The notes under the pieces: model-generated | The model's database searches: none | What the model saw: the letters and a program-made list of their open reading frames with translations, nothing else | What the model was told of the DNA's origin: nothing | From: Gammaproteobacteria bacterium | GTDB taxonomy: Bacteria > Pseudomonadota > Gammaproteobacteria > Ga0077536 | Reading direction: 5' to 3' | Length of the DNA stretch: 64,000 bases | Assembly (NCBI GenBank): GCA_047611905.1 | Contig: JBLFWZ010000002.1 | Location: forward strand, 802 to 64,801 | Shown here: positions 41,087 through 62,440 of the stretch, one piece after another | Position numbering within the stretch: position 1 is the stretch's first letter | Layout of the letters: each line of letters opens with the position of its first letter | Translations under genes and position numbers: made by a program

Positions 41087-41097
41087 GGGTAGATTCA

Positions 41098-42084: not shown

Positions 42085-42096
42085 GAAGAGGTAGCT

Positions 42097-47175: not shown

Positions 47176-47199
47176 AAACGAGGAATTGGCACTACAATA

Positions 47200-47766: not shown

Positions 47767-49271
47767 CTAGGAATTTACACCGCTTTAAAGGTGGGCTGCA
47801 TTTAACGTCGCACAAGGATCAAACGCGGCACATTGCGACGCGCAGCATATCTCGCCCTGCAGCGCTTTATCTACCGATTAAGCAACACGTCGGGATGGCT
47901 GCCTCGCCATGCATTGAGGTCGGCCAAACTGTCGTTAAAGGCGAACTCGTCGCGCGATCTCAAGGCTACGTCGGCATGCACGTTCATGCTCCAACAGACG
48001 GGGTCGTGACAGCTTTAAGGGATTTTCCTGTCATACATCCCAGTGGTCTGCGCGCGCTGTGCGTTGAATTATCAATCAGTGAGTACCAATTCGATGATAA
48101 AGCAACCGACGACTCAACCACTCTTTCCGAATTGATGCAGCTCGATCGCCATCTGATTTACGATCGTATTGAACGCGCTGGCATTATCGGTTTAGGGGGA
48201 GCCGGCTTTCCTGCTCACGTCAAAGTGCACGAAGGTACGACCCAAAACGTCGACACCTTGATAATCAACGGGATCGAGTGCGAGCCATATATCACCTGCG
48301 ACGAACGTCTGATGCAGGAACAGGCGCAGGATGTGGCTGCGGGCGCGACCTTGATCAGTTGGTTGGTAGAAGCGGATACCTGCATTATTGCACTGGAAGA
48401 AGGCATGGACGATGCGTTGGAGGCAGTGGAGCAATGCAAAAGTGATGAGCTTGAACTGATCGCCGTACCGGCAATTTATCCCGCCGGCAGCGAGAAACAG
48501 TTAATTACGGTTCTAACTGGCCTAGAACTTCCCAGCGGACACTTGCCGATTGATATCGGAATAGTCGTTCTCAACGTCGCGACGGTAGTGGCAATCTACC
48601 GTGCCGCGGCGTTCGGGTCACCGCTGACCGAACGGTTCGTTACGGTCGCGGGCGATATCCCGATGCCTGGCAATATCAAAGCGCTGATTGGCACGCCAGT
48701 TCAGCATGTACTCGATCAATGTGGCGGGTTCGACTCTGCTACTCATAGAGTACTCAGTGGTGGACCGATGATGGGTGTCGAGATCCAGGACACCAATGCC
48801 CCGATTACGAAAGTGACTAACTGCTTGTTAGTTCTAAAACGTGGTGATCAGCCGAGTACACAAACGGCCTGCATTCGGTGTGGTGAGTGTGTCACCGTTT
48901 GCCCGATCGGATTACAGCCTCAGCAACTATTTGAGGCTAGCCGCAGCGCAGACATCGACGAAGCACAAGACCTGAATCTTTTTGATTGTATCGAATGCGG
49001 ATGTTGTTCGTATGTGTGCCCTAGCGAAATTCCTTTGGTGCATTATTTTCGATATGCGAAGTCGTCGATCGAATCCTTAGATGTTGATCGCGCAGCCGCC
49101 GACGATGCGCGCCTGAGATACGAGCAGCATAAAGACCGCTTAACCGTTGGTGGAAATTCTGGTGTGGAGGAGCGTGTCAGTCTTGCAGACGTTAGTGATT
49201 TAGGTGTCAACGAACTGCAAAACGACGTGCACGATGCCATTGCCCGTGCACGACTCAGGCGAAAAAAATAA
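47763..49271 (+). CDS. rnfC: Rnf/Rsx subunit C
   Basis: [14 protein letters not shown] and two ferredoxin motifs ([24 protein letters not shown]). ATGA overlap with rnfB. Confidence 0.95.
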
Positions 49272-49394
49272 CAAGATGCTTATCTCGGTCGATTGTGTTG
49301 ATCGCGGAAATTATGATCACGACATCGCGATCGAAAGCTTATTTTTTGTGGTGATCTCGATACGCCCACATAACCACCACGGACGGACGTTATC

Positions 49395-50429
49395 GTGAAC
49401 GAGCCGCTGACTCGAAGCTCTCCCCATGTTGGCGGCGCGCGCAACGTTCGATGGAGCATGTGCCAGGTGCTGCTCGCGTTGCTGCCCGGCCTGTTCGCCT
49501 ACGTCATTGTTTTTGGTATGGGTGTGTTGATTCATTTAGGGATCGCGACAGTAAGCGCGGTACTACTGGAATACCTTGCGCTCAAATGGCAACGAATCGA
49601 TCCACAACCGTTCCTTCGCGACGGCAGCGTGCTTGTTCTAGCCTGTCTAATTACGTTTGCGATTCCACCGTATGCGCCGTGGTGGATAACGTTTCTAGGT
49701 GTCGCATTTGCGGTCTTGATTGGCAAGCACGCATTCGGCGGACTCGGGTACAATATATTCAATCCCGCGATGGCTGGTTACATATTTTTGTTACTCTGCT
49801 TCCCGCGGATAATGGGACAATGGCCGACGGCCGGATTGGAAACGGATTTTCGCGGTTTCATTGACAGCGCAAGTCTCATTATGACCGGCGCTATCGACGG
49901 TATTGATGGGCGATCCGGTGCGACAGCACTCGACCACGTAAAGACGCAGGCAACACTAATGCGGATGCAATCCGAAATGCACGCCAACAATATCTTTGGA
50001 CTGCTCGGCGGGCGTGGCTGGGAATGGATCAATATCGCGTTTTTAGCCGGCGGAGGATGGCTGCTATTGCGCCGCGTGGTGCGTTGGCGATTGCCGCTGA
50101 GTTTTCTGTGTGGCCTCGGCATTGCCGCGTCGGTTGGATACCTCTCGGATCCGGAATTACACCGTGGTCTGTTGTTTCATCTGTTCACCGGCGCGGGATT
50201 GTTTGCCGCGTTTTTTATCGTCACCGATCCCGTTTCGTCCGCGACGACACCAAAGGGTATGCTCATATTCGGATTTGGCGCAGGCGTTTTAACTTATCTA
50301 ATTCGAGAATTTGGGTCGTACCCCGACGGGGTGGCATTTGCGATCGTCTCGATGAATGCTTGCGCACCACTAATCGATCGTCTGACGCAGCCGCGATTGT
50401 ATGGAACCCAAACTAAAGAAACCCAATAA
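49395..50429 (+). CDS. rnfD: Rnf/Rsx subunit D
   Basis: Polytopic protein with GG.G.N.FNPAM.GY and the FMN-attachment region SGATALD. GTG start. Confidence 0.93.
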   Translation: MNEPLTRSSPHVGGARNVRWSMCQVLLALLPGLFAYVIVFGMGVLIHLGIATVSAVLLEYLALKWQRIDPQPFLRDGSVLVLACLITFAIPPYAPWWITFLGVAFAVLIGKHAFGGLGYNIFNPAMAGYIFLLLCFPRIMGQWPTAGLETDFRGFIDSASLIMTGAIDGIDGRSGATALDHVKTQATLMRMQSEMHANNIFGLLGGRGWEWINIAFLAGGGWLLLRRVVRWRLPLSFLCGLGIAASVGYLSDPELHRGLLFHLFTGAGLFAAFFIVTDPVSSATTPKGMLIFGFGAGVLTYLIREFGSYPDGVAFAIVSMNACAPLIDRLTQPRLYGTQTKETQ

Positions 50430-51021
50430 GCGAAGCGTATTGTTCGGTAGCTACATATCGATATTATTTGTATTTGGCATCGCGACAAGCTGTGTTTTTC
50501 TGATCAAAGACAAACTTGAGAGCGCTAGGACCCAAGCGGACAATGTTCGGGCGCACAGTTGGGTGCACGCAGTGCTGCCGGATATCGCGGGGAACATCAC
50601 AACGACGGATTTAACAAACGTGGTTGATCCAATTCGTCTCGGGACACAAAAGCCCGCGAGCGTCTACGAGGACAGGCCCGGTGAACACGTGATCGCGATT
50701 AAGTGGCGGGCGGAGAAGGGCTATAACGGTGGAATTGACCTTGCACTTGCGGTGAATCGAGGTGGTAAAATTGTGGGCATTGCCGTATTGGCGCAAAACG
50801 AAACGCGTGGATTCGGTGATGTTATTCAGAGTCCCGAATCGAAATGGATTCAATCATTCGAGGGTCGCTCATTGAAAAACCCGCTGCGAGATTTGTGGCA
50901 ACTACGCTCCAACGGCGGAGAAATTGATGGGCTGAGCGGCGCTACGATTACGGCCAATGCGGTTGTGAATGGCGTCGCGAAGGCGCTCCGATATCTCGAA
51001 TCTCGAGAGCTGGAACGTTGA
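50401..51021 (+). CDS. rnfG: Rnf/Rsx subunit G
   Basis: N-terminal anchor and the FMN-binding motif IDGLSGATITANAV. Confidence 0.92.
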   Translation: MEPKLKKPNKRSVLFGSYISILFVFGIATSCVFLIKDKLESARTQADNVRAHSWVHAVLPDIAGNITTTDLTNVVDPIRLGTQKPASVYEDRPGEHVIAIKWRAEKGYNGGIDLALAVNRGGKIVGIAVLAQNETRGFGDVIQSPESKWIQSFEGRSLKNPLRDLWQLRSNGGEIDGLSGATITANAVVNGVAKALRYLESRELER

Positions 51022-51728
51022 TTTCACGCGCTCTAAGGCAATGTTCAAATTGTGCGTGTTCCGTCGCTCTGCACAATCCATTGACCGCCCGGCTGATTGG
51101 TTTATGCCCATTGCTCGCTGTGTCGAACACCGCTCTGAAAGGCGCCGCGATTACGCTGTTACTCGCCTTAGTCGTTCTTTGTGCGGCGAGCGTTACGGCG
51201 TTACTGAGACGCACTGTAAGTTGGCGATTGCAACCTATCTACCATGCACTGATTACCTCATTCATAACGGCGCTCGTTCTTGCGGTTGCTCGCATTGAAT
51301 ACCACGCGCTGGTCGCGACACTGAGTATTTACCCGGCGCTTATCGCTAGCAACTGCTTGCTGCTTAGTTACGTTCAGGAAGTTGGGGAACGATCGTCGTT
51401 AAGAATTACCGTGCGTAAGTGCGCGCGCGACTGCATGGCAATTCTAGTGTTCATGATTGCATTCGGTGCGCTACGTGAACTCGCTACCTTCGGTACGGTT
51501 TTTACGGACACAGCAATGCTCAGTTCGTTGCCTTCATTGGTGCCTCAAAACAAGACCGGGCCGTTACCGATATTGGCAGACGCCCCAGGTGCATTAATAT
51601 TGTTGGCATTAGTATTGGCTGGCGCAAACGGCTTACGGCGGCGTCTGCAGGGCGACGAACCAACAACGTTGCCTGATTCCGTTGCGGAGCCAAGCATGCA
51701 TTCCGCGTCGCCCGGCCGACGGATTTAA
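51018..51728 (+). CDS. rnfE: Rnf/Rsx subunit E
   Basis: LIGLCPLLAVSNTA is the hallmark of RnfE/NqrD-like subunits. TTG start overlaps the rnfG stop. Confidence 0.9.
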   Translation: MISRALRQCSNCACSVALHNPLTARLIGLCPLLAVSNTALKGAAITLLLALVVLCAASVTALLRRTVSWRLQPIYHALITSFITALVLAVARIEYHALVATLSIYPALIASNCLLLSYVQEVGERSSLRITVRKCARDCMAILVFMIAFGALRELATFGTVFTDTAMLSSLPSLVPQNKTGPLPILADAPGALILLALVLAGANGLRRRLQGDEPTTLPDSVAEPSMHSASPGRRI

Positions 51729-52453: not shown

Positions 52454-52879
52454 ATGTTCGCGCAATCACGCGATGACGTTCGCTCTCACTTCGTTAGTGT
52501 GTGGGAGAAAATGGCGCTCGAGGCGCCCTTGGAGCCGTTAGAAAAGATGCTCGCGGGTGTCATTAGTCGCCATCCCGAGTATCACCAAATACTCAGTAAT
52601 CCCGACCGCGCGTTGAACACCGAATTCGGCGTCGACGGCATAACAGCTAACCCATTTCTGCATATGAGCTTACACGTCGCAATTGTGGAACAGCTGCAAA
52701 CCGATCGTCCACCAGGGGTCGTTAAAGCGTACAATTCGCTGCTTAGAAATCGTACGCTGGACGCGCATTTGGCTGAACACAAAATGATCGATTGTTTGTC
52801 TGCGAGCCTATGGCGCGCGCAACGCGATTCAATTCCACCTGACGAGGCCGAATACCTGGCCTGTTTAACGCGATCGTAA
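52454..52879 (+). CDS. DUF1841-family protein
   Basis: ATG 52454 is preceded by GGAGAG. The sequence (..NPFLHMSLHVAIVEQL..) matches my recollection of DUF1841. The stop overlaps the next start (TAATG). Confidence 0.7.
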   Translation: MFAQSRDDVRSHFVSVWEKMALEAPLEPLEKMLAGVISRHPEYHQILSNPDRALNTEFGVDGITANPFLHMSLHVAIVEQLQTDRPPGVVKAYNSLLRNRTLDAHLAEHKMIDCLSASLWRAQRDSIPPDEAEYLACLTRS

Positions 52880-54165
52880 TGAATGGCGAGATGGCGATAG
52901 ATTCGCTTTACGAAGGCAATGCAATCCCGACCGGTGAACGTTTGGCCGGATTGCTCGCCGATGTGACCCAGGAATTCGCCAGCTCTTTGAACATAGAAGA
53001 GACCCTGCAGAAAGCAATCGATCAGATCATCGTCTACCTGAACGCCGAAGCCGCATCGATCTTCTTGGTCGAGGAAAACGGTGCCGCGCTAATTTGCCGC
53101 AAATGTGCTGGACCCGTGGATGTCACCGGACTGCGGTTGCGACCAGAGCAAGGCATCGTCGGCGAGACAGTGGCAAAGAATGCGCCACAAATTGTTCGCG
53201 ACGTCTCCCAAAACGATAATTTCGCGGCCGTCGTGGATGCAGATACGGGCTTCGTGACTCGGTCGATTATGTGCGCACCGTTGACCGTGCGCGGCAATTG
53301 CATCGGCGTCCTCGAGCTCATAAACAAACGTAGCGGTGATGGTCTTTTTGCCGCAAGCGACATGTACTTAGCCACGGCCGTTGCGTCCGCTGCTGCATTA
53401 GCGATTCATAATGCAAGGATGGCCCAGGCGCTGGTCGAACAAGAACGTGTGCGCAAAGAACTGGAATTGGCCCGTCAGATTCAATTAAGTCTGTTACCGG
53501 CGGCAACACCCGCAACATTTCCGGTCCATGGGCTAAATATTCCTGCACGCGAAGTCTCTGGAGATTTTTTCGACTATTGTGCCGTCGACGGCGGTAAAAT
53601 TTACTTCAGTCTTGCGGACGTCTCCGGCAAGGGCATGAATGCGGCGTTGTTGATGGCAAAAACGACCAGCCTTTTGCGTTGTTTGGCTAAAACCGCAGCC
53701 GGCCCGGCCGAGCTGCTTGATCAAGTTAACGCCGAAATCTGTGAGACGGCGTCGCTTGGCATGTTTGTCACGATCGTCGCCGGTTATATCTATCCCGAGA
53801 CTGGGGTTGTAGAGCTTTCAAACGCAGGGCACCAGCCGCCGGTTTTTTGGCGTACGGATGGTACTTATACCGAATTGCGCGCTACGTCACCGCCGATTGG
53901 GATTTTAACTGAGCTGGAATTCGAAACAACTGAGCTCGAATTGGGTGACGGCAGCCTTTACTTATTCACCGACGGCGTGACTGAGAGCCTCGCGCCAGAT
54001 GGATCTGAGCTTGGAGTAGGCGGGTTGTGCGAGATTATCGCTGACGCAACCCAGTTCGATTCAAAAGGTCGACTCGAAGCCATTGTCGAAAGAATTTACG
54101 ACCAAGATCGTACCGTTCACGACGACCTAACCCTATTATTAATTGAGACGAAAGCGCATGTCTGA
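52879..54165 (+). CDS. GAF-domain PP2C (SpoIIE/RsbU-type) serine phosphatase
   Basis: 428 aa. N-terminal GAF-like domain, then ELELARQIQLSLLP, SGDFFDY, ADVSGKG, NAGH, TDGVTE and DDLTLL, which are the SpoIIE-family PP2C motifs. Confidence 0.9.
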   Translation: MNGEMAIDSLYEGNAIPTGERLAGLLADVTQEFASSLNIEETLQKAIDQIIVYLNAEAASIFLVEENGAALICRKCAGPVDVTGLRLRPEQGIVGETVAKNAPQIVRDVSQNDNFAAVVDADTGFVTRSIMCAPLTVRGNCIGVLELINKRSGDGLFAASDMYLATAVASAAALAIHNARMAQALVEQERVRKELELARQIQLSLLPAATPATFPVHGLNIPAREVSGDFFDYCAVDGGKIYFSLADVSGKGMNAALLMAKTTSLLRCLAKTAAGPAELLDQVNAEICETASLGMFVTIVAGYIYPETGVVELSNAGHQPPVFWRTDGTYTELRATSPPIGILTELEFETTELELGDGSLYLFTDGVTESLAPDGSELGVGGLCEIIADATQFDSKGRLEAIVERIYDQDRTVHDDLTLLLIETKAHV

Positions 54166-54574
54166 GTCCCCTATGCTTGAACTCCGCTTCCCATCCGATC
54201 CGAAACGCCTCCGTATGGTGCGCGAAAAAGTCCAAGAAGTGACCGAAGAAATTGGCTGCTCCAAAAAGCTAATATCGGACCTAGTGATCGCAATTAACGA
54301 GGCATGCATGAACATTATGCAGCACGCGTACAAAGGCGATAGATCGGGCGAAATCCTCCTCGAGATTCAAAAAGAACAAGGTAATCTGGAAGTGCTTCTG
54401 ACGGATTATGCTGCGCCAATCGATCCCAAACTCATACGACCCCGCGATTTGGACGATGTCAAACCGGGCGGGCTCGGAACGCACTTCATTCAGGAGATCA
54501 TGGACGATTGCACATATGGCAATCTCGAGGATAGGGAAGGGAATTTTTTACGAATGAGAAAAAAAATTATTTAA
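54158..54574 (+). CDS. RsbW/SpoIIAB-like anti-sigma-type serine kinase (HATPase_c)
   Basis: About 138 aa from ATG 54158. N-box INEACMNIMQHAY and G2 box GGLGTHFI. The start overlaps the phosphatase stop (ATGTCTGA). Confidence 0.85.
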   Translation: MSESPMLELRFPSDPKRLRMVREKVQEVTEEIGCSKKLISDLVIAINEACMNIMQHAYKGDRSGEILLEIQKEQGNLEVLLTDYAAPIDPKLIRPRDLDDVKPGGLGTHFIQEIMDDCTYGNLEDREGNFLRMRKKII

Positions 54575-54718
54575 CGCTACGACGAGCCGTAAGGGTTCCA
54601 AATCCTAGTGAATCGAATAAGAACTTTAGAATAGTTGCCTTCAGACCGAAATATACTGTTGTTACGTATCGATCAATCATTGCAATTAACTTAATAGGGA
54701 AAACACGGGGCGGATACC

Positions 54719-55051
54719 ATGGAATACCAAGTAGAAGAAGATCGGGGGTTTTCAATCGTGTTGCTGACGGGCGACGTGGATTTGTCGTGTTCTCCCGACG
54801 CACGCAAGACGATATTGGACTGTTTGGAGTCATCAAAGGACACGCTAGTCGACTTGTCGGGTGTCTCCTACATCGACAGTTCTGGTGTGGCCAGCCTGGT
54901 AGAAGGCTATCAAACGGCGAAAAAGAAAAATCTAAAATTCGGCCTGCTTGGCGTTAGCAGCCCCGCCATGAGCGTTTTGGAACTCGCTCGACTCGACAAA
55001 GTGTTCCCGATTTACGCAAGCGTAGAGGAGTGTGTGAATACGGATGTCTGA
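54719..55051 (+). CDS. STAS-domain protein (anti-sigma-factor-antagonist / MlaB-like)
   Basis: 110 aa. DLSGVSYIDSSGVASL contains the SpoIIAA-type phosphorylatable Ser (Ser54 here). The stop overlaps the MlaE-like start (ATGTCTGA). Confidence 0.9.
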   Translation: MEYQVEEDRGFSIVLLTGDVDLSCSPDARKTILDCLESSKDTLVDLSGVSYIDSSGVASLVEGYQTAKKKNLKFGLLGVSSPAMSVLELARLDKVFPIYASVEECVNTDV

Positions 55052-55856
55052 CCAAGGGGGGGGCGATTTTCGACAATCTATTGAAAGTTTGGGTCGTTCA
55101 ACAGTCGGGTTCGTTGAAGAATTCGGCTATTTCCTGGCGTTAACATTTGAGAGTTTCTATTGGGTCGTTGCCGGGCCCTTTAAACGACAGCCCGTACGCT
55201 TCTCAGCAGCGGTGTCACAAATGGTCGAAACGGGCATTGCTGCGCTTCCTATTGTATTCATTTTGTCATTTTCGATTGGCGTCATGCTCGCGATTCAAGG
55301 CGTGCACACTTTGAAGCAGTTTGGTGCGGAGACTCAAGTCGTGTTGGGTATCGCACTGTCAGTAACGCGTGAGTTTGGACCCTTAATTACTGGGATCCTC
55401 GTGGCTGGGCGAACCGGTTCGGCGCTAGCCGCAAGGGTTGGCACGATGCAGGTAAATCAAGAAATTGATGCGCTGCGGGTGATGGGCATTAACCCAGTTC
55501 GTTATTTGGTATCACCGGTCATGCTCGCGATGGTGGTTATGATGCCGTTCATCACGCTGTTTGCCGATTTAGCTGCGATGCTTGGCGGTGCCGTCTACTG
55601 CAATCTAGATCTCGGTCTAGGTTATGTCGCCTATTGGGATCAGGGTACTTCATTCATCACGCCGAACGATGTGATGCAAGGTCTTCTGAAAAGCGTGATA
55701 TTCGCAGTGATAATCACGCTCATTGGCGTCAGCAACGGATTTTCAGTAACCGGCGGAGCAGAAGGTGTCGGGCGGGCGACAACCCGTGCAGTTGTGCTTG
55801 CGATCTCATACATCGTACTCGCTGACATGACATTTACCTATTTCCTAAATCGCTAA
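55044..55856 (+). CDS. MlaE-family ABC transporter permease
   Basis: 270 aa with ..REFGPLITGILVAGRTGSALAA..G.M.V..EIDALR.MGI.P...LV.P typical of MlaE/Ttg2B. Confidence 0.92.
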   Translation: MSDQGGGDFRQSIESLGRSTVGFVEEFGYFLALTFESFYWVVAGPFKRQPVRFSAAVSQMVETGIAALPIVFILSFSIGVMLAIQGVHTLKQFGAETQVVLGIALSVTREFGPLITGILVAGRTGSALAARVGTMQVNQEIDALRVMGINPVRYLVSPVMLAMVVMMPFITLFADLAAMLGGAVYCNLDLGLGYVAYWDQGTSFITPNDVMQGLLKSVIFAVIITLIGVSNGFSVTGGAEGVGRATTRAVVLAISYIVLADMTFTYFLNR

Positions 55857-55862
55857 GCACTG

Positions 55863-56666
55863 ATGGAACAAGAGTACGCAATACGTGTAGAAAATCTCGT
55901 CACCCACTACGGTCCGAGAAAAATTCTGGACGGTGTGGACTTGGACATAATGCCCGGCGAGATCAATATTATTATGGGCGGCAGTGGATCCGGGAAAAGC
56001 ACCCTGTTACGTCATATGCTCGGCCTGCACACGCCAACTGCAGGAAGTATTACCTTGCTCGGCAAGAACATCGCAAAAATCAGTGCGGCCGAACTGCATG
56101 ATTTGCGAACCAACATGGGTGTCTCGTTTCAAGGTGGGGCACTGATAAGTTCGATGACCGTGGGCGAGAACGTAGAGCTACCGCTTCGCGAGCACACAAA
56201 GCTTGACGACTCGACTATCGGCATTATGGCGCGAATGAAACTCGAGGTCGTTAATCTAGGCGGCTTCGAAGACCTTATGCCGGCGCAGCTCTCCGGCGGA
56301 ATGATAAAGCGCGCGGCCCTTGCGCGCGCGATCGTGATGGATCCGAAAATGTTATTTTTCGACGAACCATCAGCCGGACTCGACCCTGTTGTGGCGTCAG
56401 AATTGGACGATTTAATTCTGAAACTCCGCGATTCGATGCAAATGACTATAGTCGTTGTCACGCACGAGCTAGAGAGCGCATTTAAAATTGCCGATCGCAT
56501 CATTGTGTTAGATCATGGCAAAATTCTATTGGCGGGTTCTGTCGAAGAAGTGAGAAATTCAAACATCGAGCGGGTTCAAGACCTGCTAAACCGCCGTTCT
56601 CGGCATGAAGAAATTGATGCCGAGGCCTATATGGATCGATTAACCGGTGGAACCAATGAACTCTGA
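55863..56666 (+). CDS. MlaF-family ABC transporter ATP-binding protein
   Basis: Walker A GGSGSGKST, signature LSGGMIKRAALARA and Walker B LFFDEPSAGLDP. Confidence 0.93.
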   Translation: MEQEYAIRVENLVTHYGPRKILDGVDLDIMPGEINIIMGGSGSGKSTLLRHMLGLHTPTAGSITLLGKNIAKISAAELHDLRTNMGVSFQGGALISSMTVGENVELPLREHTKLDDSTIGIMARMKLEVVNLGGFEDLMPAQLSGGMIKRAALARAIVMDPKMLFFDEPSAGLDPVVASELDDLILKLRDSMQMTIVVVTHELESAFKIADRIIVLDHGKILLAGSVEEVRNSNIERVQDLLNRRSRHEEIDAEAYMDRLTGGTNEL

Positions 56667-56714
56667 AGCTAATTTCCCCAGGACGGGCCACTATCGTCAG
56701 GAATTTGTGCAACG

Positions 56715-57704
56715 ATGAAACGCGACACAGTCAATTACTTCGTCGTCGGCATTTTCGTGTTGACCATGATATTCGCATTTTTCGTGCTGATGTTTTTCGT
56801 TACCGGTAGCACCGGTCCGGCGGATAACTACACCGTAAAATACTCTAATGTTAACGGCCTAAAGTTCGGCACGGGAGTTTTCTACGAGGGTTATAGGGTC
56901 GGCCAAATAGAAACGATCGTACCGACCCCGGCAGAAGCCGGGATGGAGTATGTGCTAACTCTGAGCATCACGCGAGATTGGAAAATTCCACGAGATAGCG
57001 TCGCAAAGGTAATGGCTTCAGGATTGATATCCGCCGTCCAAATCGAAATTGAAGGGGGAACGAGCGAGCAAGCTGTCTCACCCGGCGGAGAAATTAAGGG
57101 TCAAGAACAACAGGATCTTTTTGCCGTCATAAATGATGCGGCCGGTGAATTCCAAGCGCTATCGAGAGACGGGATAAAGCCCGTCTTGCAGAATATAAAT
57201 AAGCGCATCGATGAACTTTCCGCCGAAGGGGTTAGTTTTCGACGCGAACAACTTGGTCCGTTAATCGATACGTTTAACAAGCGGCTCAATGAGGATCTCG
57301 TTGGGGACGCGCAATCGTTGCTTGCAAAGCTTGATCACAGCGCTCAGCAATTAAATAAAATATTAGGTTCTAAAAATCAGCAACAGATCGAAAGTTTTCT
57401 CGTTCATATCGACGATGTTGCGCTAAATTTAGGCGGACTCATCTCGCGCATCGAAATGACACGTGTACAAATGGGAGACACCTTAGCGGCCTTGAAACAT
57501 CTAGTGGCGGACAACAATCATCAAGTCAGAACGACGGTAGAAAACGCCAACCTGTCGATGCAAGAGATGCACAATGCCCTACAGACCGTCAATGAGCACC
57601 TGGGCACAATTTTGTATAACGTTGAGGGTAGCGCCCGGCATTTACATGAATTTTCTCAATCGGTCCGAGACAATCCGTCACGAATTATCCGTGGAACGAA
57701 ATAA
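56715..57704 (+). CDS. MCE (MlaD-like) substrate-binding protein with long C-terminal helical region
   Basis: N-terminal TM helix, an MCE domain (..V.GL..G..V...G..VG.I..I) and then about 200 aa of coiled-coil-like sequence. Confidence 0.88.
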   Translation: MKRDTVNYFVVGIFVLTMIFAFFVLMFFVTGSTGPADNYTVKYSNVNGLKFGTGVFYEGYRVGQIETIVPTPAEAGMEYVLTLSITRDWKIPRDSVAKVMASGLISAVQIEIEGGTSEQAVSPGGEIKGQEQQDLFAVINDAAGEFQALSRDGIKPVLQNINKRIDELSAEGVSFRREQLGPLIDTFNKRLNEDLVGDAQSLLAKLDHSAQQLNKILGSKNQQQIESFLVHIDDVALNLGGLISRIEMTRVQMGDTLAALKHLVADNNHQVRTTVENANLSMQEMHNALQTVNEHLGTILYNVEGSARHLHEFSQSVRDNPSRIIRGTK

Positions 57705-57705
57705 A

Positions 57706-58338
57706 GTGAAGCTCGTAGATTGTCATTGGTCCTACGTAAAGCTAACCGCGATCCTAATTATCGCGCTGCTGCCGGCGTGTGGCGCACTAAAGCCGTTACC
57801 GAGTGATCGACATTACCAATTGGGTGTAAATCATTTGAGCGCTAGCGTGGACAGTTCGCGGTGGACCGAAGAACCTATCCGAGTAGCAAAGTTTCAGGCC
57901 AATGGTGTGCATCGAGAGCGCTCGATCGTGCGGTCAGAAAGTGGGAAATTCGCCGTGCAGCAGCTTCGCTACGATTTGTGGGTTGATAGCCCCGAGCGAA
58001 TGTTGCAAACCGAACTTGTTAGTTACTTACGCGCCGCCAATGTTGCCCCCGTGGTATCGACGTCAAATGTTCACCGCAGCGGCTATGAGATTGCTGGGAG
58101 AATTCTACGATTTGAGCAAGTTGTCGATGGTGATGGTACAAGCATTGCGGTGGTGCTTGGCCTTGAACTCGCCGCGCTGAAATCGCCACCGACACTGGTG
58201 CTGGCGCGCGAGTACGAAGAAATAGCAGCAGCCGGTAACGGCGATATCGAAGCGAGTGTCGCTTCGATATCAGCTGCGATAGAAACGATATTTCGTCGAT
58301 TCGTCGCAGATGCAGGGACGACGTTACGTCAACAATGA
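57706..58338 (+). CDS. ABC-transport auxiliary lipoprotein (DUF330 / PqiC-YmbA-like)
   Basis: GTG 57706 lies 1 nt after the MCE stop. Lipobox LLPAC|G. The size and position match the auxiliary lipoproteins of MCE transporters. The ORF track opens at 57574 inside the upstream gene. Confidence 0.75.
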   Translation: MKLVDCHWSYVKLTAILIIALLPACGALKPLPSDRHYQLGVNHLSASVDSSRWTEEPIRVAKFQANGVHRERSIVRSESGKFAVQQLRYDLWVDSPERMLQTELVSYLRAANVAPVVSTSNVHRSGYEIAGRILRFEQVVDGDGTSIAVVLGLELAALKSPPTLVLAREYEEIAAAGNGDIEASVASISAAIETIFRRFVADAGTTLRQQ

Positions 58339-58514: not shown

Positions 58515-60776
58515 ATGGTGAGAATGGAAATGTCAGCATTGATATCCAAGATAAAAGATAACAACGTCCGAATCGGACTGTGCTTCATCGTCTTGTTGTT
58601 TTATTTGTCTCATGCGGCCGATTGGTTACGAATCGGGTTTATTTCCCAGATGGAAAATATCGCCTACGACAAGCGTTTGTTGTGGACGATGCCTGAGACC
58701 GTAGATAAGCGGATAGTCATTGTCGACATCGATGAAGCGAGTTTGACCGCCGAGGGGCGATGGCCGTGGGGCAGGGACAAGTTGTCGAACCTTGTCGAAA
58801 TGCTATTCGATGAGTACGAGATCGCCATCGTCGGTTTTGATATCGTCTTTGCGGAGCCGGATGAAAGCTCTGGGCTAAACGTATTAGAACGACTGGCCGA
58901 CGAAGAATTAAAGAATAACAAAATGTTTCGAGCGCAGCTTCAAGTTCTACGCCCGCAGCTCGATTACGACGGTCGATTCGCCGAAACTATTCAGCAATAC
59001 CCAGTCGTACTGGGTTACTACTTCAATTTTGTTGCTGGCAGGGTGGAGGCGTCTAAGATTGGTAGCTTGCCAAGCCCAACATTTGTCAAAGGGACCTTTA
59101 AGGGCAAGCGGATTGCCTTCCACGAGGCCGATGGACACGGCAGCAACATTCAGCAGTTAGAATCTAGCGCACTTGGATCGGGGCATTTCAATCCGATTCC
59201 AGACCCAGACGGTATAATTCGCAGGGTTCCGATGTTGATCGAGTACGAAGGCGAGTACTACTCCTCGTTATCAATGGAAGTTGCCCGACATTTGCTCGGC
59301 TCAGAAGACGTTAAGCCGCGCTTTGAGAAACCATTGTTCGGCGGTAAAGCCTACGCTGGACTAGAGTGGCTAACGATAGGGGATAAATTGATCCCCGTCG
59401 ACGGGCGCCTGCAGACCTTAGTTCCCTACCGAGGCGCGCAAGGCAGCTTTCCCTACGTCTCAGCAACTGACGTCCTACACGGCGACGCAGACAAGTCCGT
59501 TCTCAAAGGTGCGACGGTACTGGTCGGAACAACAGCTCCTGGACTTCTGGATCTACGATCGACGCCGGTCGCCGAAGCGTATCCGGGAGTCGAAGTTCAC
59601 GCCAATTTAATTGGTGGCATACTCGATGGCACGATCAAGCAGCTTCCAGAGTATACGCTCGGTGCGGAGGTTTTGCTCCTTATCGTGTTCGGCTTAGTGA
59701 TGGCGATCATCGTGCCACTTTTGAGCCCGCTCGCTGCGACGATCGCCACCATAGGCTTATTAGTCGTGTATTTCGGATTTAATTTCCTGGTTTGGACGGC
59801 CGGAAACTTTGTGCTTCCGATAGCGTCCGGCGTCATGATGCTGCTCTCGATGTTCGTTTTGAATATGTCTTACGGTTATTTCGTCGAAACGCGGGGAAAG
59901 CGACAGATCACCGGGCTGTTTGGTCAGTATATTCCGCCCGAATTGGTCGATGAGATGGCCGATCAACCGTCAGACTACTCGCTCGATGCCAAGAGCATGG
60001 AGCTTACGGTATTGTTTTCCGATGTTCGGGGGTTTACGACGATCTCGGAGGGCTTGAGTCCAACTGAATTAGCTGAACTCATGAATCTGTTTCTCACGCC
60101 AATGACGCGCGTTATTCACGAGCAACGCGGCACGATCGACAAATACATGGGTGATGCCATTATGTCGTTCTGGGGTGCGCCGATTGACGATCGTGACCAT
60201 GCGAAGCACGCACTCGATGCGGGTATGCAAATGTTGCAACGCTTGGACGAAGTTAATGCCCAATTTGTAAGTCGCGGTTGGCCTGAGATCCAGATCGGGA
60301 TCGGAATTAACACCGGCATGATGAGTGTTGGCAACATGGGGTCCGAATTCCGGATGGCCTATACGGTTTTGGGAGACGCAGTAAATCTTGGTTCAAGGCT
60401 TGAAGGATTGACTAAAGGTTATAACGTTTCGCTGATTGTTAGCGAAAGCACGAAATCAGCTGTGCCAGAATATGCCTATCGAGAGTTGGATCGCGTTAGG
60501 GTCAAAGGAAAAGATAAGCCTGTTGTTATCTACCAGCCGCTTTGCTTAGTAGAAGATTTGGATAAGGAATGGAAGGCGGAACTTAAACTTTACCGTGAAG
60601 CGTTACGTCTATATCGCAGTCAGGAGTGGGATATGGCTGAGATGAATCTACTGAATTTGCAGCGTACTTCCCGCTCACCGGGCTTGTATAAAGTCTATGT
60701 AGAGCGAGTTGCTCAGTATCGAGAGAACTCACCGCCCCAAGACTGGGACGGTGTATATACTTTCACATCGAAGTAG
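58515..60776 (+). CDS. CHASE2-domain class III adenylate/guanylate cyclase
   Basis: 753 aa. N-terminal TM helix, a periplasmic CHASE2-like region (IVIVDIDE.SL...GRWPW.R) and 3 TM helices. Cyclase motifs follow (LTVLFSDVRGFT, KYMGDAIMSFWGAP, GINTG...VGNMGS, YTVLGDAVNLGSRLE). Confidence 0.9.
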   Translation: MVRMEMSALISKIKDNNVRIGLCFIVLLFYLSHAADWLRIGFISQMENIAYDKRLLWTMPETVDKRIVIVDIDEASLTAEGRWPWGRDKLSNLVEMLFDEYEIAIVGFDIVFAEPDESSGLNVLERLADEELKNNKMFRAQLQVLRPQLDYDGRFAETIQQYPVVLGYYFNFVAGRVEASKIGSLPSPTFVKGTFKGKRIAFHEADGHGSNIQQLESSALGSGHFNPIPDPDGIIRRVPMLIEYEGEYYSSLSMEVARHLLGSEDVKPRFEKPLFGGKAYAGLEWLTIGDKLIPVDGRLQTLVPYRGAQGSFPYVSATDVLHGDADKSVLKGATVLVGTTAPGLLDLRSTPVAEAYPGVEVHANLIGGILDGTIKQLPEYTLGAEVLLLIVFGLVMAIIVPLLSPLAATIATIGLLVVYFGFNFLVWTAGNFVLPIASGVMMLLSMFVLNMSYGYFVETRGKRQITGLFGQYIPPELVDEMADQPSDYSLDAKSMELTVLFSDVRGFTTISEGLSPTELAELMNLFLTPMTRVIHEQRGTIDKYMGDAIMSFWGAPIDDRDHAKHALDAGMQMLQRLDEVNAQFVSRGWPEIQIGIGINTGMMSVGNMGSEFRMAYTVLGDAVNLGSRLEGLTKGYNVSLIVSESTKSAVPEYAYRELDRVRVKGKDKPVVIYQPLCLVEDLDKEWKAELKLYREALRLYRSQEWDMAEMNLLNLQRTSRSPGLYKVYVERVAQYRENSPPQDWDGVYTFTSK

Positions 60777-60845
60777 ATGCTTCTGGTCGCGTTCCTGGAA
60801 CGGATGAGCTTCCGCGCAGGCGCGAGCCTTCACTCTTCTAGCAAC

Positions 60846-61583
60846 CTAGGCCGTGATGCTGAATTCCATCTTAATGCCAGCCAGTTCGATGATGTCTCCG
60901 TGGTTCATCGTATAAGCTTGCGGCCCCAGTGCTACGCCATTTACAATTGGGTAGTTGTTGTTCTGCCCATCGCCCTCGATATGCGTTAAGAAGTAGCCTT
61001 GGGGTCTGCGCGATATAACGGCGACTTGGACGCCCGGCTTACCCAATGTAATTAACGCCTTCGTCAGTTCCAATTCCTTGCCCGCAATCGGACCGTTAAG
61101 TACTTGTAACTTGCCGAGCGGCATGCCCGACGGTGCAGGGCTGTTTGGAGTAGCTGCTGCAGGCGTCGCTGCAGGTGCTCCCTCGATCTTTGCTGCACCG
61201 GCTTCTTCGGCGGCTCTCGCGGCCGCTACCGCTGCACTTGCCGAACCCGGACGAATAATCATCGTCTTCTCGAAGTCCTCGTCGTCGGCCGTCGCATGCT
61301 CGTTGACATATTTAAGCTCATGCTTGCCAATGCCAACGACGTCACCGTCTCGCAGTGCGTGCTTTTTAATGAGTTTCCCGTTCACGTAAGTACCGTTAGT
61401 ACTACCGAGATCCTCTAAAAATGAGTCGTCCAGGATTGTAATAACGAGCGCATGCTTACCACTAACCGCTAGGTTGTCGACTTGTATGTCGTTGTCGGGT
61501 TTTCGACCGAGTGATATCCGTTCTCTATTGAGCGGATATTCCCCTTGTACTACCCCATTTAAGCTGAGAACAAGTTTAGCCAT
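60846..61583 (-). CDS. double FHA-domain protein
   Basis: N-terminal FHA (ISLGRKPDNDIQV.N..VSGKHA......GSTNGTYVNG) and an Ala/Pro-rich linker. The second, divergent FHA-like domain is ITLGKPG.....NGV.L. Confidence 0.88.
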   Translation of the reverse strand: MAKLVLSLNGVVQGEYPLNRERISLGRKPDNDIQVDNLAVSGKHALVITILDDSFLEDLGSTNGTYVNGKLIKKHALRDGDVVGIGKHELKYVNEHATADDEDFEKTMIIRPGSASAAVAAARAAEEAGAAKIEGAPAATPAAATPNSPAPSGMPLGKLQVLNGPIAGKELELTKALITLGKPGVQVAVISRRPQGYFLTHIEGDGQNNNYPIVNGVALGPQAYTMNHGDIIELAGIKMEFSITA

Positions 61584-61597
61584 TGTTTCGCCTTATC

Positions 61598-62440
61598 CTA
61601 GCCGCCTCGCGTCATTAAATTGATAAATTTGGAAATGATCCCAGCATTTGCAGGGAACGGTGCCCGTGGTCTTGCGAGGACTACCGATATGTTGTCTTTC
61701 CCGCCACTTTCGTTCGCTAAACGCACCAACTCGTGCGCTGCCTCTACAAGATTAGCACTATATTTACTTAGGGTTAAGCGAATTTCTTCATCATCTACCA
61801 TATCATTCAAGCCGTCCGAACATAGCAAGTAAATATCGCCCGGTTGGGTCGCTTCCTGCTTCACATCTACCTCAACTTTGGCGTCAATTCCGAGAGCCCG
61901 TGTCACCAGATTCTTCGGTGTATTTGCCTCGGCTTCTTCCGGGGTAAAAAACCCCCGATCAATCAATTCCTGCACCAGCGAATGATCATTTGTGACTTGC
62001 GCGAGTTCGTCGCCTCGAAAGCGATAAACTCTGGAGTCGCCGACATGTGCAATGATAGCTGTGTTGTCGTGAAAATAAACTGCAACAACGGTCGTCCCCA
62101 TGCCTTGGCATTGCGGTACTTTTGTCGCTGTTCTAAAGATGTGCGTATTCGCGTCAACAATCGAGTCCCTTACCAGTAACGCCTCAGCGGATAAGCCTGC
62201 GTCACCTTCGACGTCTTCACTGGGGCGATTTTGAGGTACGGAAACGTTACCACGCACGATATCCAGAATTGCCTTTGCCGCGATTGCACTCGCGACTTCA
62301 CCAGCCTTGTAGCCGCCCATGCCATCGGCGACCAGCGCCAGGCCTATCTCGGGGTCGGTTATGGCCGAATCTTCGTTATGTGGCCGCTTGCGCCCCGTGT
62401 CGGAGACGTTGACAAACTCAATTTTAGTCGATAGATCCAT
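61598..62440 (-). CDS. PP2C-family Ser/Thr phosphatase (Stp-type)
   Basis: DTGRKRPHNEDS, VADGMGG, HVGDSRVY, CSDGL and GGKDNISVV. Confidence 0.92.
   Translation of the reverse strand: MDLSTKIEFVNVSDTGRKRPHNEDSAITDPEIGLALVADGMGGYKAGEVASAIAAKAILDIVRGNVSVPQNRPSEDVEGDAGLSAEALLVRDSIVDANTHIFRTATKVPQCQGMGTTVVAVYFHDNTAIIAHVGDSRVYRFRGDELAQVTNDHSLVQELIDRGFFTPEEAEANTPKNLVTRALGIDAKVEVDVKQEATQPGDIYLLCSDGLNDMVDDEEIRLTLSKYSANLVEAAHELVRLANESGGKDNISVVLARPRAPFPANAGIISKFINLMTRGG

What the first reader, a model, noticed from the sequence alone, without database searches (positions are those of the whole stretch)
52454..58338. Partner-switching module (GAF-PP2C phosphatase, RsbW-like kinase, phosphorylatable STAS) fused in line with an MCE/Mla-type lipid ABC transporter, with no sigma factor
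**Seen in the sequence.** Eight co-oriented genes run DUF1841, GAF-PP2C (SpoIIE-type), RsbW-like HATPase kinase, a 144 bp gap, a STAS protein, an MlaE-like permease, an MlaF-like ATPase, an MCE protein with a long helical tail, and a DUF330-type lipoprotein.
- DUF1841/phosphatase overlap as TAATG.
- Phosphatase/kinase and STAS/permease both overlap through the identical 8-mer ATGTCTGA (54158-54165 and 55044-55051). The STAS protein is therefore translationally coupled to the transporter, not to the kinase.
- The STAS protein keeps the SpoIIAA-type DLSGVSYIDSSG motif (Ser54), so it looks phosphorylatable.
- No sigma factor ORF exists anywhere in the 64 kb.

**Established knowledge.** RsbU/RsbW/RsbV-type modules normally control a sigma factor. 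In the canonical Mla system the STAS protein MlaB binds and regulates the MlaF ATPase.

**Inference.** The STAS protein may act as a phospho-regulated MlaB equivalent. A small-molecule-sensing GAF phosphatase and a kinase would then gate an envelope lipid transporter post-translationally. I am not aware of that wiring having been characterised.
Basis: partly seen in the sequence, partly recalled or inferred. Interest (0 to 1): 0.78.

Follow-up and report, generated by a model that had tools for sequence, protein, structure and literature searches.

The report
Kinase-controlled STAS subunit of lipid transporter
In a group of uncultured Gammaproteobacteria, a phosphatase, a kinase and a small phosphorylatable STAS protein (the kind that normally controls a sigma factor) are instead hard-wired to an envelope lipid (MCE-type) ABC transporter, giving a natural test case for whether such transporters are switched by phosphorylation.

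Summary
**Observation.** Confirmed in every detail: genes, domains, both ATGTCTGA overlaps, the 144-bp gap, Ser54, and no sigma factor in 64 kb.

**Evidence that the link is real.**
- In 83 related loci from species-representative genomes, the kinase (74/74) and GAF-PP2C (73/74) always precede the STAS gene.
- The STAS stop overlaps the MlaE start by the same 8 nt in 57/65 transporter-bearing loci.
- PP2C–kinase–STAS–MlaE–ATPase–MCE–lipoprotein recurs as a block in at least three unrelated genomic contexts, once with an HDOD sensor instead of GAF.
- Most of the permease's nearest relatives elsewhere are STAS–MlaE fusion proteins (78/144). These lack a kinase or phosphatase nearby (0/5).

**Interpretation.** Most likely the STAS protein is a detached, phospho-regulated cytoplasmic subunit of the transporter. 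This rests on comparative genomics only.

**Caveats.**
- 16/81 loci have lost the transporter, at least five times independently, yet keep an intact trio with unchanged STAS constraint. The trio must have another partner.
- The STAS is RsbV/SpoIIAA-like, not an MlaB orthologue.
- The transporter is the permease–ATPase–MCE–DUF330 type, not canonical Mla.
- DUF1841 is not part of the core.

**Verdict.** New variant of known kinds; untested biochemically.

The parts
52454..52879 (+). DUF1841 protein. It is a clade-specific upstream neighbour that overlaps the phosphatase start by one base. It is not part of the conserved core unit.
   Evidence: Pfam PF08897, 163 bits. Detected in 62/74 clade loci and in L096, but absent from the L094 and L095 versions of the unit.
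52879..54165 (+). GAF-PP2C (SpoIIE-type) serine phosphatase. It is the presumed signal input, via small-molecule binding to GAF, and the presumed STAS~P phosphatase.
   Evidence: SpoIIE 145 bits and GAF 56 bits. The metal-binding Asp motifs are conserved in 77-78/78. It lies upstream of STAS in 73/74 loci. An HDOD domain replaces GAF in L094.
54158..54574 (+). RsbW-like HATPase_c_2 serine kinase, 138 aa. Its ATG overlaps the phosphatase stop (ATGTCTGA).
   Evidence: PF13581, 104 bits. The best PDB hit is B. subtilis RsbW 6m36_A, E=3.9e-14. N-box E48/N52/H56, G1 Asp83 and the G2 motif PGGLG are invariant or near-invariant in 83 sequences. It lies upstream of STAS in 74/74 loci.
54575..54718 (+). 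144-bp spacer between kinase and STAS. It contains a block (GACCGAAATA, 54644-54653) conserved within the window's subclade. Its function is unknown; an internal promoter or operator is possible.
   Evidence: Sequence; spacer alignment. There is no sigma-70-like promoter or terminator on the + strand and no Rfam match. Spacer length varies from 15 to 414 nt across loci, median about 70.
54719..55051 (+). STAS protein, 110 aa, with phosphorylatable Ser54 at the N-terminus of helix alpha2. It is the proposed detached, phospho-regulated cytoplasmic subunit of the transporter.
   Evidence: TIGR00377, 68 bits against a cutoff of 53. Ser54 is invariant in 84/84. The AF2 model has pLDDT 87, with top folds TM1442, RsbV and SpoIIAA at TM 0.80-0.85 and MlaB at 0.65. 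Its stop overlaps the MlaE ATG by 8 nt, conserved in 57/65 loci.
55044..55856 (+). MlaE-family permease, 270 aa, without a STAS domain of its own. It corresponds to the MlaE part of the STAS-MlaE fusion permeases.
   Evidence: PF02405, 242 bits; TIGR00056, 235 bits against a cutoff of 212. Homology to the fused relative P0125 starts at window residue 8, which aligns with fused residue 110, directly after its STAS domain.
55863..56666 (+). MlaF-like ABC ATPase, 267 aa. It is the inferred binding partner of the STAS protein.
   Evidence: ABC_tran 104 bits. The best NCBIfam family is MlaF PRK11831, at 196 bits, below the equivalog cutoff of 441.
56715..57704 (+). MCE-domain protein, 329 aa. It has an N-terminal TM helix, one MCE domain and a C-terminal extension of about 200 aa.
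   Evidence: PF02470, 43 bits, at residues 38-115. TIGR00996 Mce family aligns across residues 13-296 at 71 bits, below its cutoff. A single-sequence AF2 model gives residues 129-325 as helical but at low confidence.
57706..58338 (+). ABC_trans_aux (DUF330/PqiC-like) lipoprotein. The probable start is GTG 57706, and the signal peptide ends in ...LLPAC.
   Evidence: PF03886, 23.9 bits, under the cutoff of 26. Orthologues carry PF03886 in L001, L089, L091, L092, L095 and L096. tblastn hits in the loci start right after the MCE gene.

Best explanation
**What it is.** The core is a seven-gene unit:
- a sensor-PP2C phosphatase (the sensor is GAF here);
- an RsbW-like serine kinase;
- a STAS protein;
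- a four-component MCE-type ABC lipid transporter: MlaE-family permease, MlaF-like ATPase, long single-MCE protein, and DUF330/PqiC-like lipoprotein.

**Shown.**
- These genes travel together.
- The STAS ORF is translationally coupled to the permease.
- This permease subfamily normally carries a STAS domain fused to its cytoplasmic N-terminus, which this permease lacks.
- Ser54 and the catalytic motifs of the kinase and phosphatase are conserved.

**Inferred.**
- The free STAS protein takes the place of the fused STAS domain. By analogy with E. coli MlaB-MlaF, it docks in its unphosphorylated form on the ATPase/permease cytoplasmic face and supports transporter assembly or ATPase activity.
- The kinase phosphorylates Ser54, which lies at the centre of the equivalent MlaB-MlaF interface. 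That releases or inactivates STAS and switches transport off.
- The GAF-PP2C (HDOD-PP2C in L094), on sensing a cytoplasmic ligand, dephosphorylates STAS~P and switches transport on.
- The kinase and the ATPase would compete for the same STAS face, so the 'partner switch' would be between kinase and transporter rather than between kinase and sigma factor.
- The trio survives transporter loss, so it probably has at least one further partner encoded elsewhere.
For: - **Linkage.** The kinase precedes STAS in 74/74 loci and the PP2C in 73/74. The transporter follows STAS in 65/81 resolved loci, from species-representative genomes whose STAS is 61-91% identical.
- **Translational coupling.** The STAS stop overlaps the MlaE ATG by 8 nt (ATGnnTGA/TAA/TAG) in 57/65 loci. 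That ATG survives in only 7/16 loci that lost the transporter (Fisher p=5e-4).
- **Block mobility.**
  - L094 has HDOD-SpoIIE, kinase, STAS, MlaE, ABC, MlaD and ABC_trans_aux in a different neighbourhood.
  - L095 has GAF-PP2C, kinase, STAS and the transporter in a third neighbourhood.
  - L096 (Legionellales MAG) has the unit without the cyclase/FHA island.
- **Rosetta stone.**
  - 102/150 nearest MlaE representatives have an N-terminal extension of 80 aa or more.
  - 78/144 have a Pfam STAS domain.
  - All 120 best hits to a profile of the fused proteins are STAS+MlaE.
  - The split point matches the domain boundary, and 110+270 aa equals the fused length.
- **Same transporter type.** Fused-type loci carry the same ATPase-MCE-DUF330 set.
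- **Competent chemistry.** Ser54 is invariant in 84/84. The kinase N/G1/G2 boxes and the PP2C Asp motifs are conserved. The kinase is closest to RsbW from the RsbW-RsbV complex.
- **No sigma factor.** None in the window or in the annotated flanks of related loci.
- **Precedent.** MlaB Thr52 sits at the centre of the MlaF interface, and T52E weakens binding. The authors leave phosphoregulation open (PMC7367683).
Against: - **Transporter is dispensable.** 16/81 loci lack the transporter but keep an intact trio. These losses fall in at least five separate places on the module tree.
- **No relaxation after loss.** STAS constraint is unchanged in those loci. 40 of the 41 positions near-invariant in Mla+ loci are kept. 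The conserved STAS surface therefore serves something that remains.
- **Not MlaB-like.** The STAS is more similar to anti-sigma antagonists than to MlaB.
  - Sequence profile against PDB: E=1e-14 for TM1442 against about 1e-3 for MlaB.
  - Predicted fold: TM 0.80-0.85 against 0.65.
  - It is also closer to them than to the fused STAS domains, which score a median of 18 bits against the clade profile.
- **Fused systems lack the enzymes.** None of five fused-type systems has a kinase or phosphatase nearby, so STAS on these transporters does not generally need phospho-control.
- **One split system without a kinase.** L092 has split STAS plus transporter with no kinase in the 2.1 kb upstream. An IS element sits there and the contig is short.
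- **No co-evolution signal.** The mirror-tree analysis showed no specific STAS-ATPase signal (partial r = -0.07). STAS is probably too short and too conserved for this test.
- **No direct evidence.** There is no binding or phosphorylation evidence of any kind, and no complex could be predicted with the tools at hand.
Confidence: 0.55

Rival explanations
1. This is a classical partner switch with a distal output. The RsbW-like kinase sequesters a sigma factor or other regulator encoded elsewhere, and STAS is only its antagonist. The transporter is co-transcribed cargo or part of the regulated response, and STAS does not touch it.
For: - STAS and kinase are most similar, in sequence and fold, to RsbV/SpoIIAA and RsbW.
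- The trio persists intact, with unchanged STAS constraint, in 16/81 loci that lack the transporter.
- The kinase is the size of a stand-alone anti-sigma factor, at 138 aa.
Against: - There is no sigma factor in 64 kb or in the annotated flanks of six different contexts.
- It does not explain the conserved 8-nt STAS/MlaE overlap, or the decay of that ATG after transporter loss.
- It does not explain why this STAS-less permease belongs to a subfamily that is mostly STAS-fused.
- It does not explain why the seven genes move as a block between contexts.
Confidence: 0.2
2. Signal flow runs the other way, or both ways. The transporter acts as a sensor. Its ATPase cycle or lipid load decides how much STAS it holds, and so how much free STAS can engage the kinase. 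The kinase in turn controls a target elsewhere. GAF or HDOD is then a second input.
For: - The structural evidence for a STAS-transporter contact is the same as for the main explanation.
- This reading also explains why the trio is retained, under the same constraint, when the transporter is lost: the output lies elsewhere.
Against: - No candidate output was identified.
- It is less parsimonious than direct gating.
- The fused STAS-MlaE systems have no kinase to signal to.
Confidence: 0.12
3. The STAS protein regulates the neighbouring CHASE2 adenylate/guanylate cyclase. This would resemble Pseudomonas HsbA acting on the diguanylate cyclase HsbD (that example is from my own knowledge, not checked here). 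The transporter would be incidental.
For: - The cyclase follows the transporter in 42 loci and directly follows STAS in 6 loci.
- The whole neighbourhood is a signalling island.
Against: - The cyclase is absent from 19 resolved clade loci: 9 with the transporter only and 10 with neither.
- It is also absent from L094, L095 and L096, where the seven-gene unit is intact.
Confidence: 0.05
4. The adjacency is coincidental. Two unrelated operons happen to abut in this lineage.
For: The 144-bp gap in the window could hold a separate promoter. A conserved block sits in that spacer within the subclade.
Against: - Linkage is conserved across 65 loci and three unrelated contexts.
- The gene overlap is conserved.
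- The kinase-STAS spacer is short in most loci, median about 70 nt and down to 15.
- Gene fusions exist in sister families.
Confidence: 0.02

Closest known systems
E. coli MlaFEDB with its STAS subunit MlaB (PDB 6XGY, 7CH7; Kolich et al. 2020, PMC7367683)
   Same: - Both have an MlaE-family permease, a MlaF-like ATPase, an MCE protein and a small cytoplasmic STAS protein encoded in the same operon.
- Both STAS proteins carry a conserved Ser/Thr (MlaB Thr52, here Ser54) at the N-terminus of helix alpha2. In MlaB that residue lies at the centre of the ATPase interface.
   Different: - The STAS here is not an MlaB orthologue (NF033618 26.5 bits against a cutoff of 90; fold TM 0.65).
- It is a full-length canonical STAS of 110 aa, encoded upstream of the permease with overlapping ORFs. 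MlaB sits at the 3' end of its operon.
- There is no MlaC here. The MCE protein is long and comes with a DUF330 lipoprotein.
- A dedicated kinase and phosphatase are present. None is known for MlaB.
RsbU-RsbW-RsbV and SpoIIE-SpoIIAB-SpoIIAA partner-switching modules of Bacillus
   Same: - The three protein types are the same: SpoIIE-type PP2C, HATPase_c_2 kinase and STAS with a phospho-serine.
- These are the closest solved structures: RsbW 6m36_A at E=4e-14, and RsbV/SpoIIAA at TM 0.80-0.85.
- The gene order phosphatase-kinase-antagonist is comparable.
   Different: - No sigma factor is encoded in the unit or within tens of kb.
- The host is a gammaproteobacterium.
- The STAS gene is translationally coupled to a membrane transporter.
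- The phosphatase sensor is GAF or HDOD.
Partner switches with non-sigma outputs in Gram-negative bacteria: Vibrio fischeri SypE-SypA, Bordetella BtrU/W/V, Shewanella CrsR-CrsA, Chlamydia Rsb (listed in PMC8256260), and Pseudomonas HsbR-HsbA (from my own knowledge)
   Same: A STAS protein whose phospho-state is set by a kinase/phosphatase pair controls something other than a neighbouring sigma-B or sigma-F type sigma factor. In several of these cases STAS itself is the output.
   Different: None of these outputs is an ABC transporter. None shows STAS fused or translationally coupled to a permease.
Permease-ATPase-MCE-DUF330 ('type I MCE') operons of Proteobacteria (Isom et al. 2017, PMC5561183). 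Sphingobium LinKLMN (from my own knowledge) and the KEGG 'phospholipid/cholesterol/gamma-HCH transport system' belong to this type.
   Same: The four transporter components and their order are the same. Public annotation gives the window permease exactly this KEGG name.
   Different: Published descriptions include no STAS protein, kinase or phosphatase.
STAS-MlaE fusion permeases. About 7,100 proteins match at E<=1e-10 in Planctomycetota (Scalindua/Brocadiales), KSB1, Verrucomicrobiota and others. They are annotated only as 'MlaE family permease'.
   Same: - The permease subfamily is the same, at 35-48% identity.
- The partner genes are the same: ATPase, MCE of about 300-330 aa, and DUF330.
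- A STAS module sits at the cytoplasmic N-terminus and usually keeps the D-S/T-x-G motif (22/26 alignable).
   Different: - There STAS is covalently fused, and no kinase or phosphatase lies within 7 kb (0/5).
- Here STAS is a separate, RsbV-like polypeptide under a kinase/phosphatase pair.

Membership tests
Partner-switching module (RsbU/RsbW/RsbV type) | SpoIIE/PP2C phosphatase with intact metal-binding aspartates | tested here: met
   PF07228, 145 bits. The motifs VSGDFFD, DVSGKG, TDG and DD are conserved in 77-78/78 clade members.
Partner-switching module (RsbU/RsbW/RsbV type) | HATPase_c_2 serine kinase with N, G1 and G2 boxes | tested here: met
   PF13581, 104 bits. It aligns to RsbW 6m36_A. 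E48/N52/H56, Asp83 and PGGLG are invariant or near-invariant. The G1 box reads D-[F/Y]-A rather than D-x-G, but its Asp is kept. B. subtilis RsbW itself reads DEGDSF at this position.
Partner-switching module (RsbU/RsbW/RsbV type) | Single-domain STAS protein with a conserved phosphorylatable Ser at the start of helix alpha2 | tested here: met
   TIGR00377, 68 bits against a cutoff of 53. Ser54 is invariant in 84/84. In the AF2 model Ser54 lies at the N-terminus of helix 54-69.
Partner-switching module (RsbU/RsbW/RsbV type) | A cognate sigma factor, or other sequestered target of the kinase, encoded with the module | tested here: not met
   No sigma-factor domain in any scanned ORF of 130 aa or more in the 64-kb window. 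None in the annotated flanks of related loci. A distal target cannot be excluded.
Partner-switching module (RsbU/RsbW/RsbV type) | Kinase phosphorylates and PP2C dephosphorylates the STAS serine | not testable with these tools
   Needs biochemistry.
MlaB (NCBIfam NF033618) | Scores above the family's curated cutoff | tested here: not met
   26.5 bits against a cutoff of 90, covering only residues 41-95. PDB MlaB chains match at E about 1e-3, against 1e-14 for TM1442.
MlaB (NCBIfam NF033618) | Encoded at the 3' end of mlaFEDCB, together with MlaC | tested here: not met
   The STAS gene lies 5' of the permease. There is no MlaC (PF05494) in the unit.
MlaB (NCBIfam NF033618) | Binds the helical subdomain of the MlaF ATPase | not testable with these tools
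   No multimer prediction is available. The only support is indirect: the ORF overlap and the STAS-MlaE fusions.
Canonical Mla system (MlaFEDCB + MlaA) | Equivalog-level MlaE, MlaF and MlaD | tested here: not met
   - MlaE NF033619: 170 bits against a cutoff of 315.
- MlaF PRK11831: 196 against 441.
- MlaD TIGR04430: 68 against 135.
- Only the broader MlaE subfamily model TIGR00056 is passed, at 235 against 212.
Four-component MCE transporter (permease-ATPase-MCE-DUF330 lipoprotein; 'type I MCE' operon, LinKLMN-like) | MlaE-family permease, ABC ATPase, single-MCE protein and ABC_trans_aux lipoprotein, in that order | tested here: met
   Pfam domains and gene order. The lipoprotein is 2 bits under the cutoff in the window, but its orthologues carry PF03886. 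The operon type is described in PMC5561183.
STAS-MlaE fusion permeases | STAS and MlaE domains in one polypeptide | tested here: not met
   There are two ORFs in different frames overlapping by 8 nt. Homology to the fused proteins begins at the domain boundary. The free STAS scores only 12-38 bits against the fused STAS domains.

The most novel reading that the evidence does not exclude
The MCE transporter is not only the target of the partner switch but also its sensor. The amount of STAS held on the transporter's cytoplasmic face depends on lipid flux or the ATPase cycle. That sets how much STAS is free to engage the RsbW-like kinase, which controls a further target that has not been identified. 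Envelope lipid status would then be converted into a cytoplasmic phospho-signal. This would also explain why the trio is kept, under unchanged constraint, in lineages that lost the transporter.
Probability: 0.12. Interest if true: 0.85.

Novelty: new variant of a known kind. Interest (0 to 1): 0.72.

Why it matters
**An open question becomes testable.** How MCE/Mla-type lipid transporters are regulated after translation is unresolved. The MlaFB structure paper proposes phosphorylation of the STAS subunit but names no kinase (PMC7367683). This unit supplies a natural candidate system with a dedicated kinase, a sensor-phosphatase and an invariant serine, so the idea can be tested directly with purified parts.

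**It would extend partner switching.** The logic known for sigma factors, secretion and biofilm control would reach to the gating of an envelope ABC transporter.

**It points to a wider role for STAS.** STAS domains fused to MlaE permeases are widespread: about 7,100 proteins across several phyla. They are the majority form in this subfamily but are essentially undiscussed. STAS control of MCE transporters may therefore be much broader than MlaB.

Tried and rejected
- **Clade-specific STAS profile (A1).** Used to detect fused STAS domains, it was too narrow and found only 26/102. Pfam was used instead.
- **One Pfam call** exceeded the residue limit and was repeated on 144 sequences.
- **P0134** looked like an in-clade STAS-MlaE fusion. 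It is a frameshifted chimera and was discarded.
- **Promoter/terminator scan.** Counts were at chance level and nothing fell on the + strand of the 144-bp gap, so it is uninformative. Rfam found nothing.
- **Mirror-tree rate covariation.** STAS gave weak partial correlations with every partner (-0.07 to 0.25), so it is inconclusive. PP2C, kinase and transporter proteins co-vary with each other at 0.36-0.54, which I treat as weak support only.
- **ATG at the STAS stop in transporter-less loci.** This is not clean evidence of a relic, because the ATG also lies within the conserved Asp-Gly codons. Only the frequency difference is used.
- **Complex prediction (STAS with ATPase, STAS with kinase).** Not attempted, for two reasons. 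It also returns no inter-chain confidence or coordinates.
- **Single-sequence AF2 of the MCE protein.** The model was low-confidence (pLDDT 50), so no fold search was run on it.

Full report
**1.

ORF listing, Pfam and NCBIfam confirm eight co-oriented genes.

| Gene | Coordinates | Evidence |
|---|---|---|
| DUF1841 | 52454-52879 | PF08897 |
| GAF + SpoIIE phosphatase | 52879-54165 | SpoIIE 145 bits |
| HATPase_c_2 kinase | 54158-54574 | best NCBIfam hit RsbW |
| STAS | 54719-55051 | anti-sigma-antagonist superfamily, 68 bits, cutoff 53 |
| MlaE-family permease | 55044-55856 | PF02405, 242 bits |
| ABC ATPase | 55863-56666 | best family MlaF |
| MCE protein | 56715-57704 | PF02470, 43 bits |
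| ABC_trans_aux lipoprotein | to 58338 | 2 bits under the Pfam cutoff here; its orthologues pass |

- The sequence shows ATGTCTGA at 54158-54165 and 55044-55051, and a 144-bp kinase-STAS gap.
- No sigma-factor domain occurs in any other sizeable ORF of the window. The unscanned ORFs at 46600-51728 are the rnf genes, by synteny.
- The window is a MAG contig of an uncultured gammaproteobacterium. The public annotation calls the STAS 'anti-sigma B factor antagonist' and mislabels the kinase as RsbU.

**2. The phosphatase-kinase-STAS trio is an invariant unit, and the transporter usually follows it.**

- The STAS protein has 3,644 relatives at E<=1e-3, and the best 120 are at least 66% identical.
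- A scan of one genome per species found 397 genomes with a relative. The 80 best loci are all uncultured Gammaproteobacteria.
- I mapped the window's proteins onto 83 non-redundant loci.
  - The kinase lies upstream of STAS in 74/74 loci with enough sequence, the GAF-PP2C in 73/74, and nth in 73/74.
  - Downstream of STAS, 65/81 resolved loci carry the MlaE-ATPase-MCE-lipoprotein block.
- In 57/65 of those, the STAS stop overlaps the MlaE ATG by exactly 8 nt.
- Ser54 is invariant in 84/84. The kinase N, G1 (Asp) and G2 boxes and the PP2C aspartate motifs are conserved.

**3. The transporter is nevertheless dispensable for keeping the trio.**

- Sixteen of 81 loci have no transporter. STAS is followed directly by the CHASE2 cyclase (6 loci) or by the convergent FHA gene (10 loci), with only 40-535 nt between.
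- On a neighbour-joining tree of PP2C+kinase+STAS, these loci fall in at least five separate places inside a background of transporter-bearing loci. That points to repeated loss.
- The ATG embedded in the STAS stop region survives in only 7/16 of them (Fisher p=5e-4). This is consistent with loss of selection on a start codon.
- Yet STAS keeps 40 of the 41 positions that are near-invariant in transporter-bearing loci. So the conserved STAS surface also serves something that remains.

**4. Independent evidence that STAS belongs to the transporter.**

- An exhaustive search with the window's permease returned its nearest representatives outside the clade. In 102/150, 80 aa or more precede the MlaE-homologous part.
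- 78/144 have a Pfam STAS domain there.
- A profile of such fusions finds about 7,100 proteins. The best 120 all carry STAS+MlaE, and named sources include Scalindua/Brocadiales, KSB1 and Udaeobacter.
- Homology to the window permease starts right after the fused STAS domain, and 110+270 aa equals the fused length.
- From the published MlaFEDB structures, the MlaE N-terminus is cytoplasmic (established knowledge). A fused STAS would therefore sit next to the ATPase.
- Fused-type loci encode the same ATPase, ~300-330-aa MCE protein and DUF330 lipoprotein. None of five has a HATPase_c_2 kinase or SpoIIE phosphatase within 7 kb.

**5. The seven-gene unit moves as a block.**

- **L094.** Its permease is 56% identical. 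It has HDOD-SpoIIE, kinase, STAS, MlaE, ABC, MlaD and ABC_trans_aux, with abutting or overlapping ORFs, among unrelated neighbours.
- **L095.** This is an Ectothiorhodospiraceae MAG. It has an uncalled GAF-PP2C and kinase in front of STAS and the transporter, in a third context.
- **L096.** This is a Legionellales MAG. It has the window's arrangement without the cyclase/FHA island.
- **L092.** It has split STAS plus transporter behind an IS element, with no kinase in the 2.1 kb available.
- DUF1841, nth, the cyclase, FHA and the second PP2C are therefore context, not core.

**6. What the STAS protein resembles.**

- By profile against PDB it matches anti-sigma antagonists: TM1442 at 1e-14, RsbV at 1e-7, and MlaB at only ~1e-3.
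- A confident AF2 model (pLDDT 87) places Ser54 at the N-terminus of helix alpha2. It superposes best on TM1442, RsbV and SpoIIAA (TM 0.80-0.85). E. coli MlaB ranks 35th at TM 0.65.
- The clade profile scores the fused STAS domains at only 12-38 bits.
- So the free STAS is an RsbV-type protein occupying the position of the fused domain. An RsbV-like STAS may have displaced the fused domain, or the two may have split long ago and diverged. I cannot tell which.

**7. Mechanism proposed (inferred).**

- The analogy is with MlaB-MlaF. There Thr52 lies at the centre of the interface, T52E weakens binding, and MlaB is needed for stable, active MlaF (PMC7367683).
- By that analogy, unphosphorylated STAS docks on the ATPase/permease and enables transport.
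- The RsbW-like kinase phosphorylates Ser54 and disengages it.
- The sensor-PP2C (GAF or HDOD) reverses this in response to a cytoplasmic signal.
- The kinase and the ATPase would compete for one STAS face.
- The long MCE protein plus the PqiC-like lipoprotein suggest a trans-envelope conduit rather than an MlaC shuttle (compare PMC10665443 and PMC5561183). Its helical tail is supported only by a low-confidence model.
- The substrate and the direction of transport are unknown.
- Persistence of the trio without the transporter means there is a second partner. That is why I put confidence at 0.55 and keep two rivals open: a distal-target reading and a transporter-as-sensor reading.

**8. Novelty.**

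- Full-text searches found no description of a kinase/phosphatase-linked Mla/MCE transporter, or of STAS-MlaE fusions.
- The review of STAS-only proteins does not mention MlaB or ABC transporters.
- Both parent systems are known: partner switching, and STAS regulation of MlaF. This is therefore a new variant, not a new category.
- It makes a stated open question directly testable, and it occurs in hundreds of species, none of them cultivated.

Noticed in passing
window 58515-64000 (also L001, L007-L012 and others): A conserved signalling island lies next to the unit. It comprises a CHASE2-adenylate/guanylate cyclase (+), an FHA protein at 60846-61583 (-), a PPM-type PP2C at 61598-62440 (-), and a CHASE2 + Hanks Ser/Thr kinase from 62597 running off the window end (858 aa in L001). 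The FHA/PP2C pair flanks STAS even where both the transporter and the cyclase are missing.
   Followed up: partly
P0125-P0379; loci L087-L091: STAS-MlaE fusion permeases are very common: about 7,100 proteins at E<=1e-10 across several phyla. They are the majority architecture among this permease's nearest relatives. They are annotated only as 'MlaE family permease', and I found no discussion of them in the searchable literature.
   Followed up: partly
window 54625-54657: A conserved block (TTTAGAAT ... GACCGA[A/C]ATA) sits in the kinase-STAS spacer and is shared by the window's subclade (L004-L015). It matches no sigma-70 consensus and no Rfam family. It may be an internal promoter or operator for the STAS-transporter genes.
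   Followed up: partly
window 54158-54574 (public protein MFT4560405.1): The public annotation names the RsbW-like kinase 'sigma-B regulation protein RsbU (phosphoserine phosphatase)' and the STAS 'anti-sigma B factor antagonist'. The first name is wrong and the second is misleading for a gammaproteobacterium.
   Followed up: yes
L095 5975-7662 (GCA_024234915.1, JACKNL010000011.1): The gene calls held for this GC-rich contig leave a 1.8-kb 'empty' stretch. By tblastn it encodes a full GAF-PP2C (50% identity) and the kinase (46%).
   Followed up: yes
L004/L005 6110-7393 and 13553-14925: In one lineage the phosphatase is called as separate GAF and SpoIIE ORFs, and an IS element (rve integrase) interrupts the cyclase. 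This is either decay of the locus or long-read assembly errors.
   Followed up: no
window 3289-9506: A YaiO-type beta-barrel protein and a family-2 glycosyltransferase lie with three sizeable ORFs that have no Pfam match (4091-4945, 6325-7434, 7431-9506). This may be an uncharacterised exopolysaccharide export locus.
   Followed up: no
window 17898-22927 and 40301-42687: Two ammonium-transporter genes are followed by a cNMP-binding + rhodanese protein (21863-22927). Elsewhere a MotA/MotB pair is followed by a PilZ protein. Together with the CHASE2 cyclase, these suggest cyclic-nucleotide signalling is prominent in this organism.
   Followed up: no
L090 10760-12070: In a Scalindua-type fused STAS-MlaE locus, the transporter is followed directly by a cNMP-binding/PAS protein. 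This is another hint of a link between these transporters and cyclic-nucleotide signalling.
   Followed up: no
clade loci: After removing background divergence, the evolutionary distances of the phosphatase, kinase, permease, ATPase and MCE protein co-vary with one another (partial r 0.25-0.54). STAS co-varies with none of them.
   Followed up: partly
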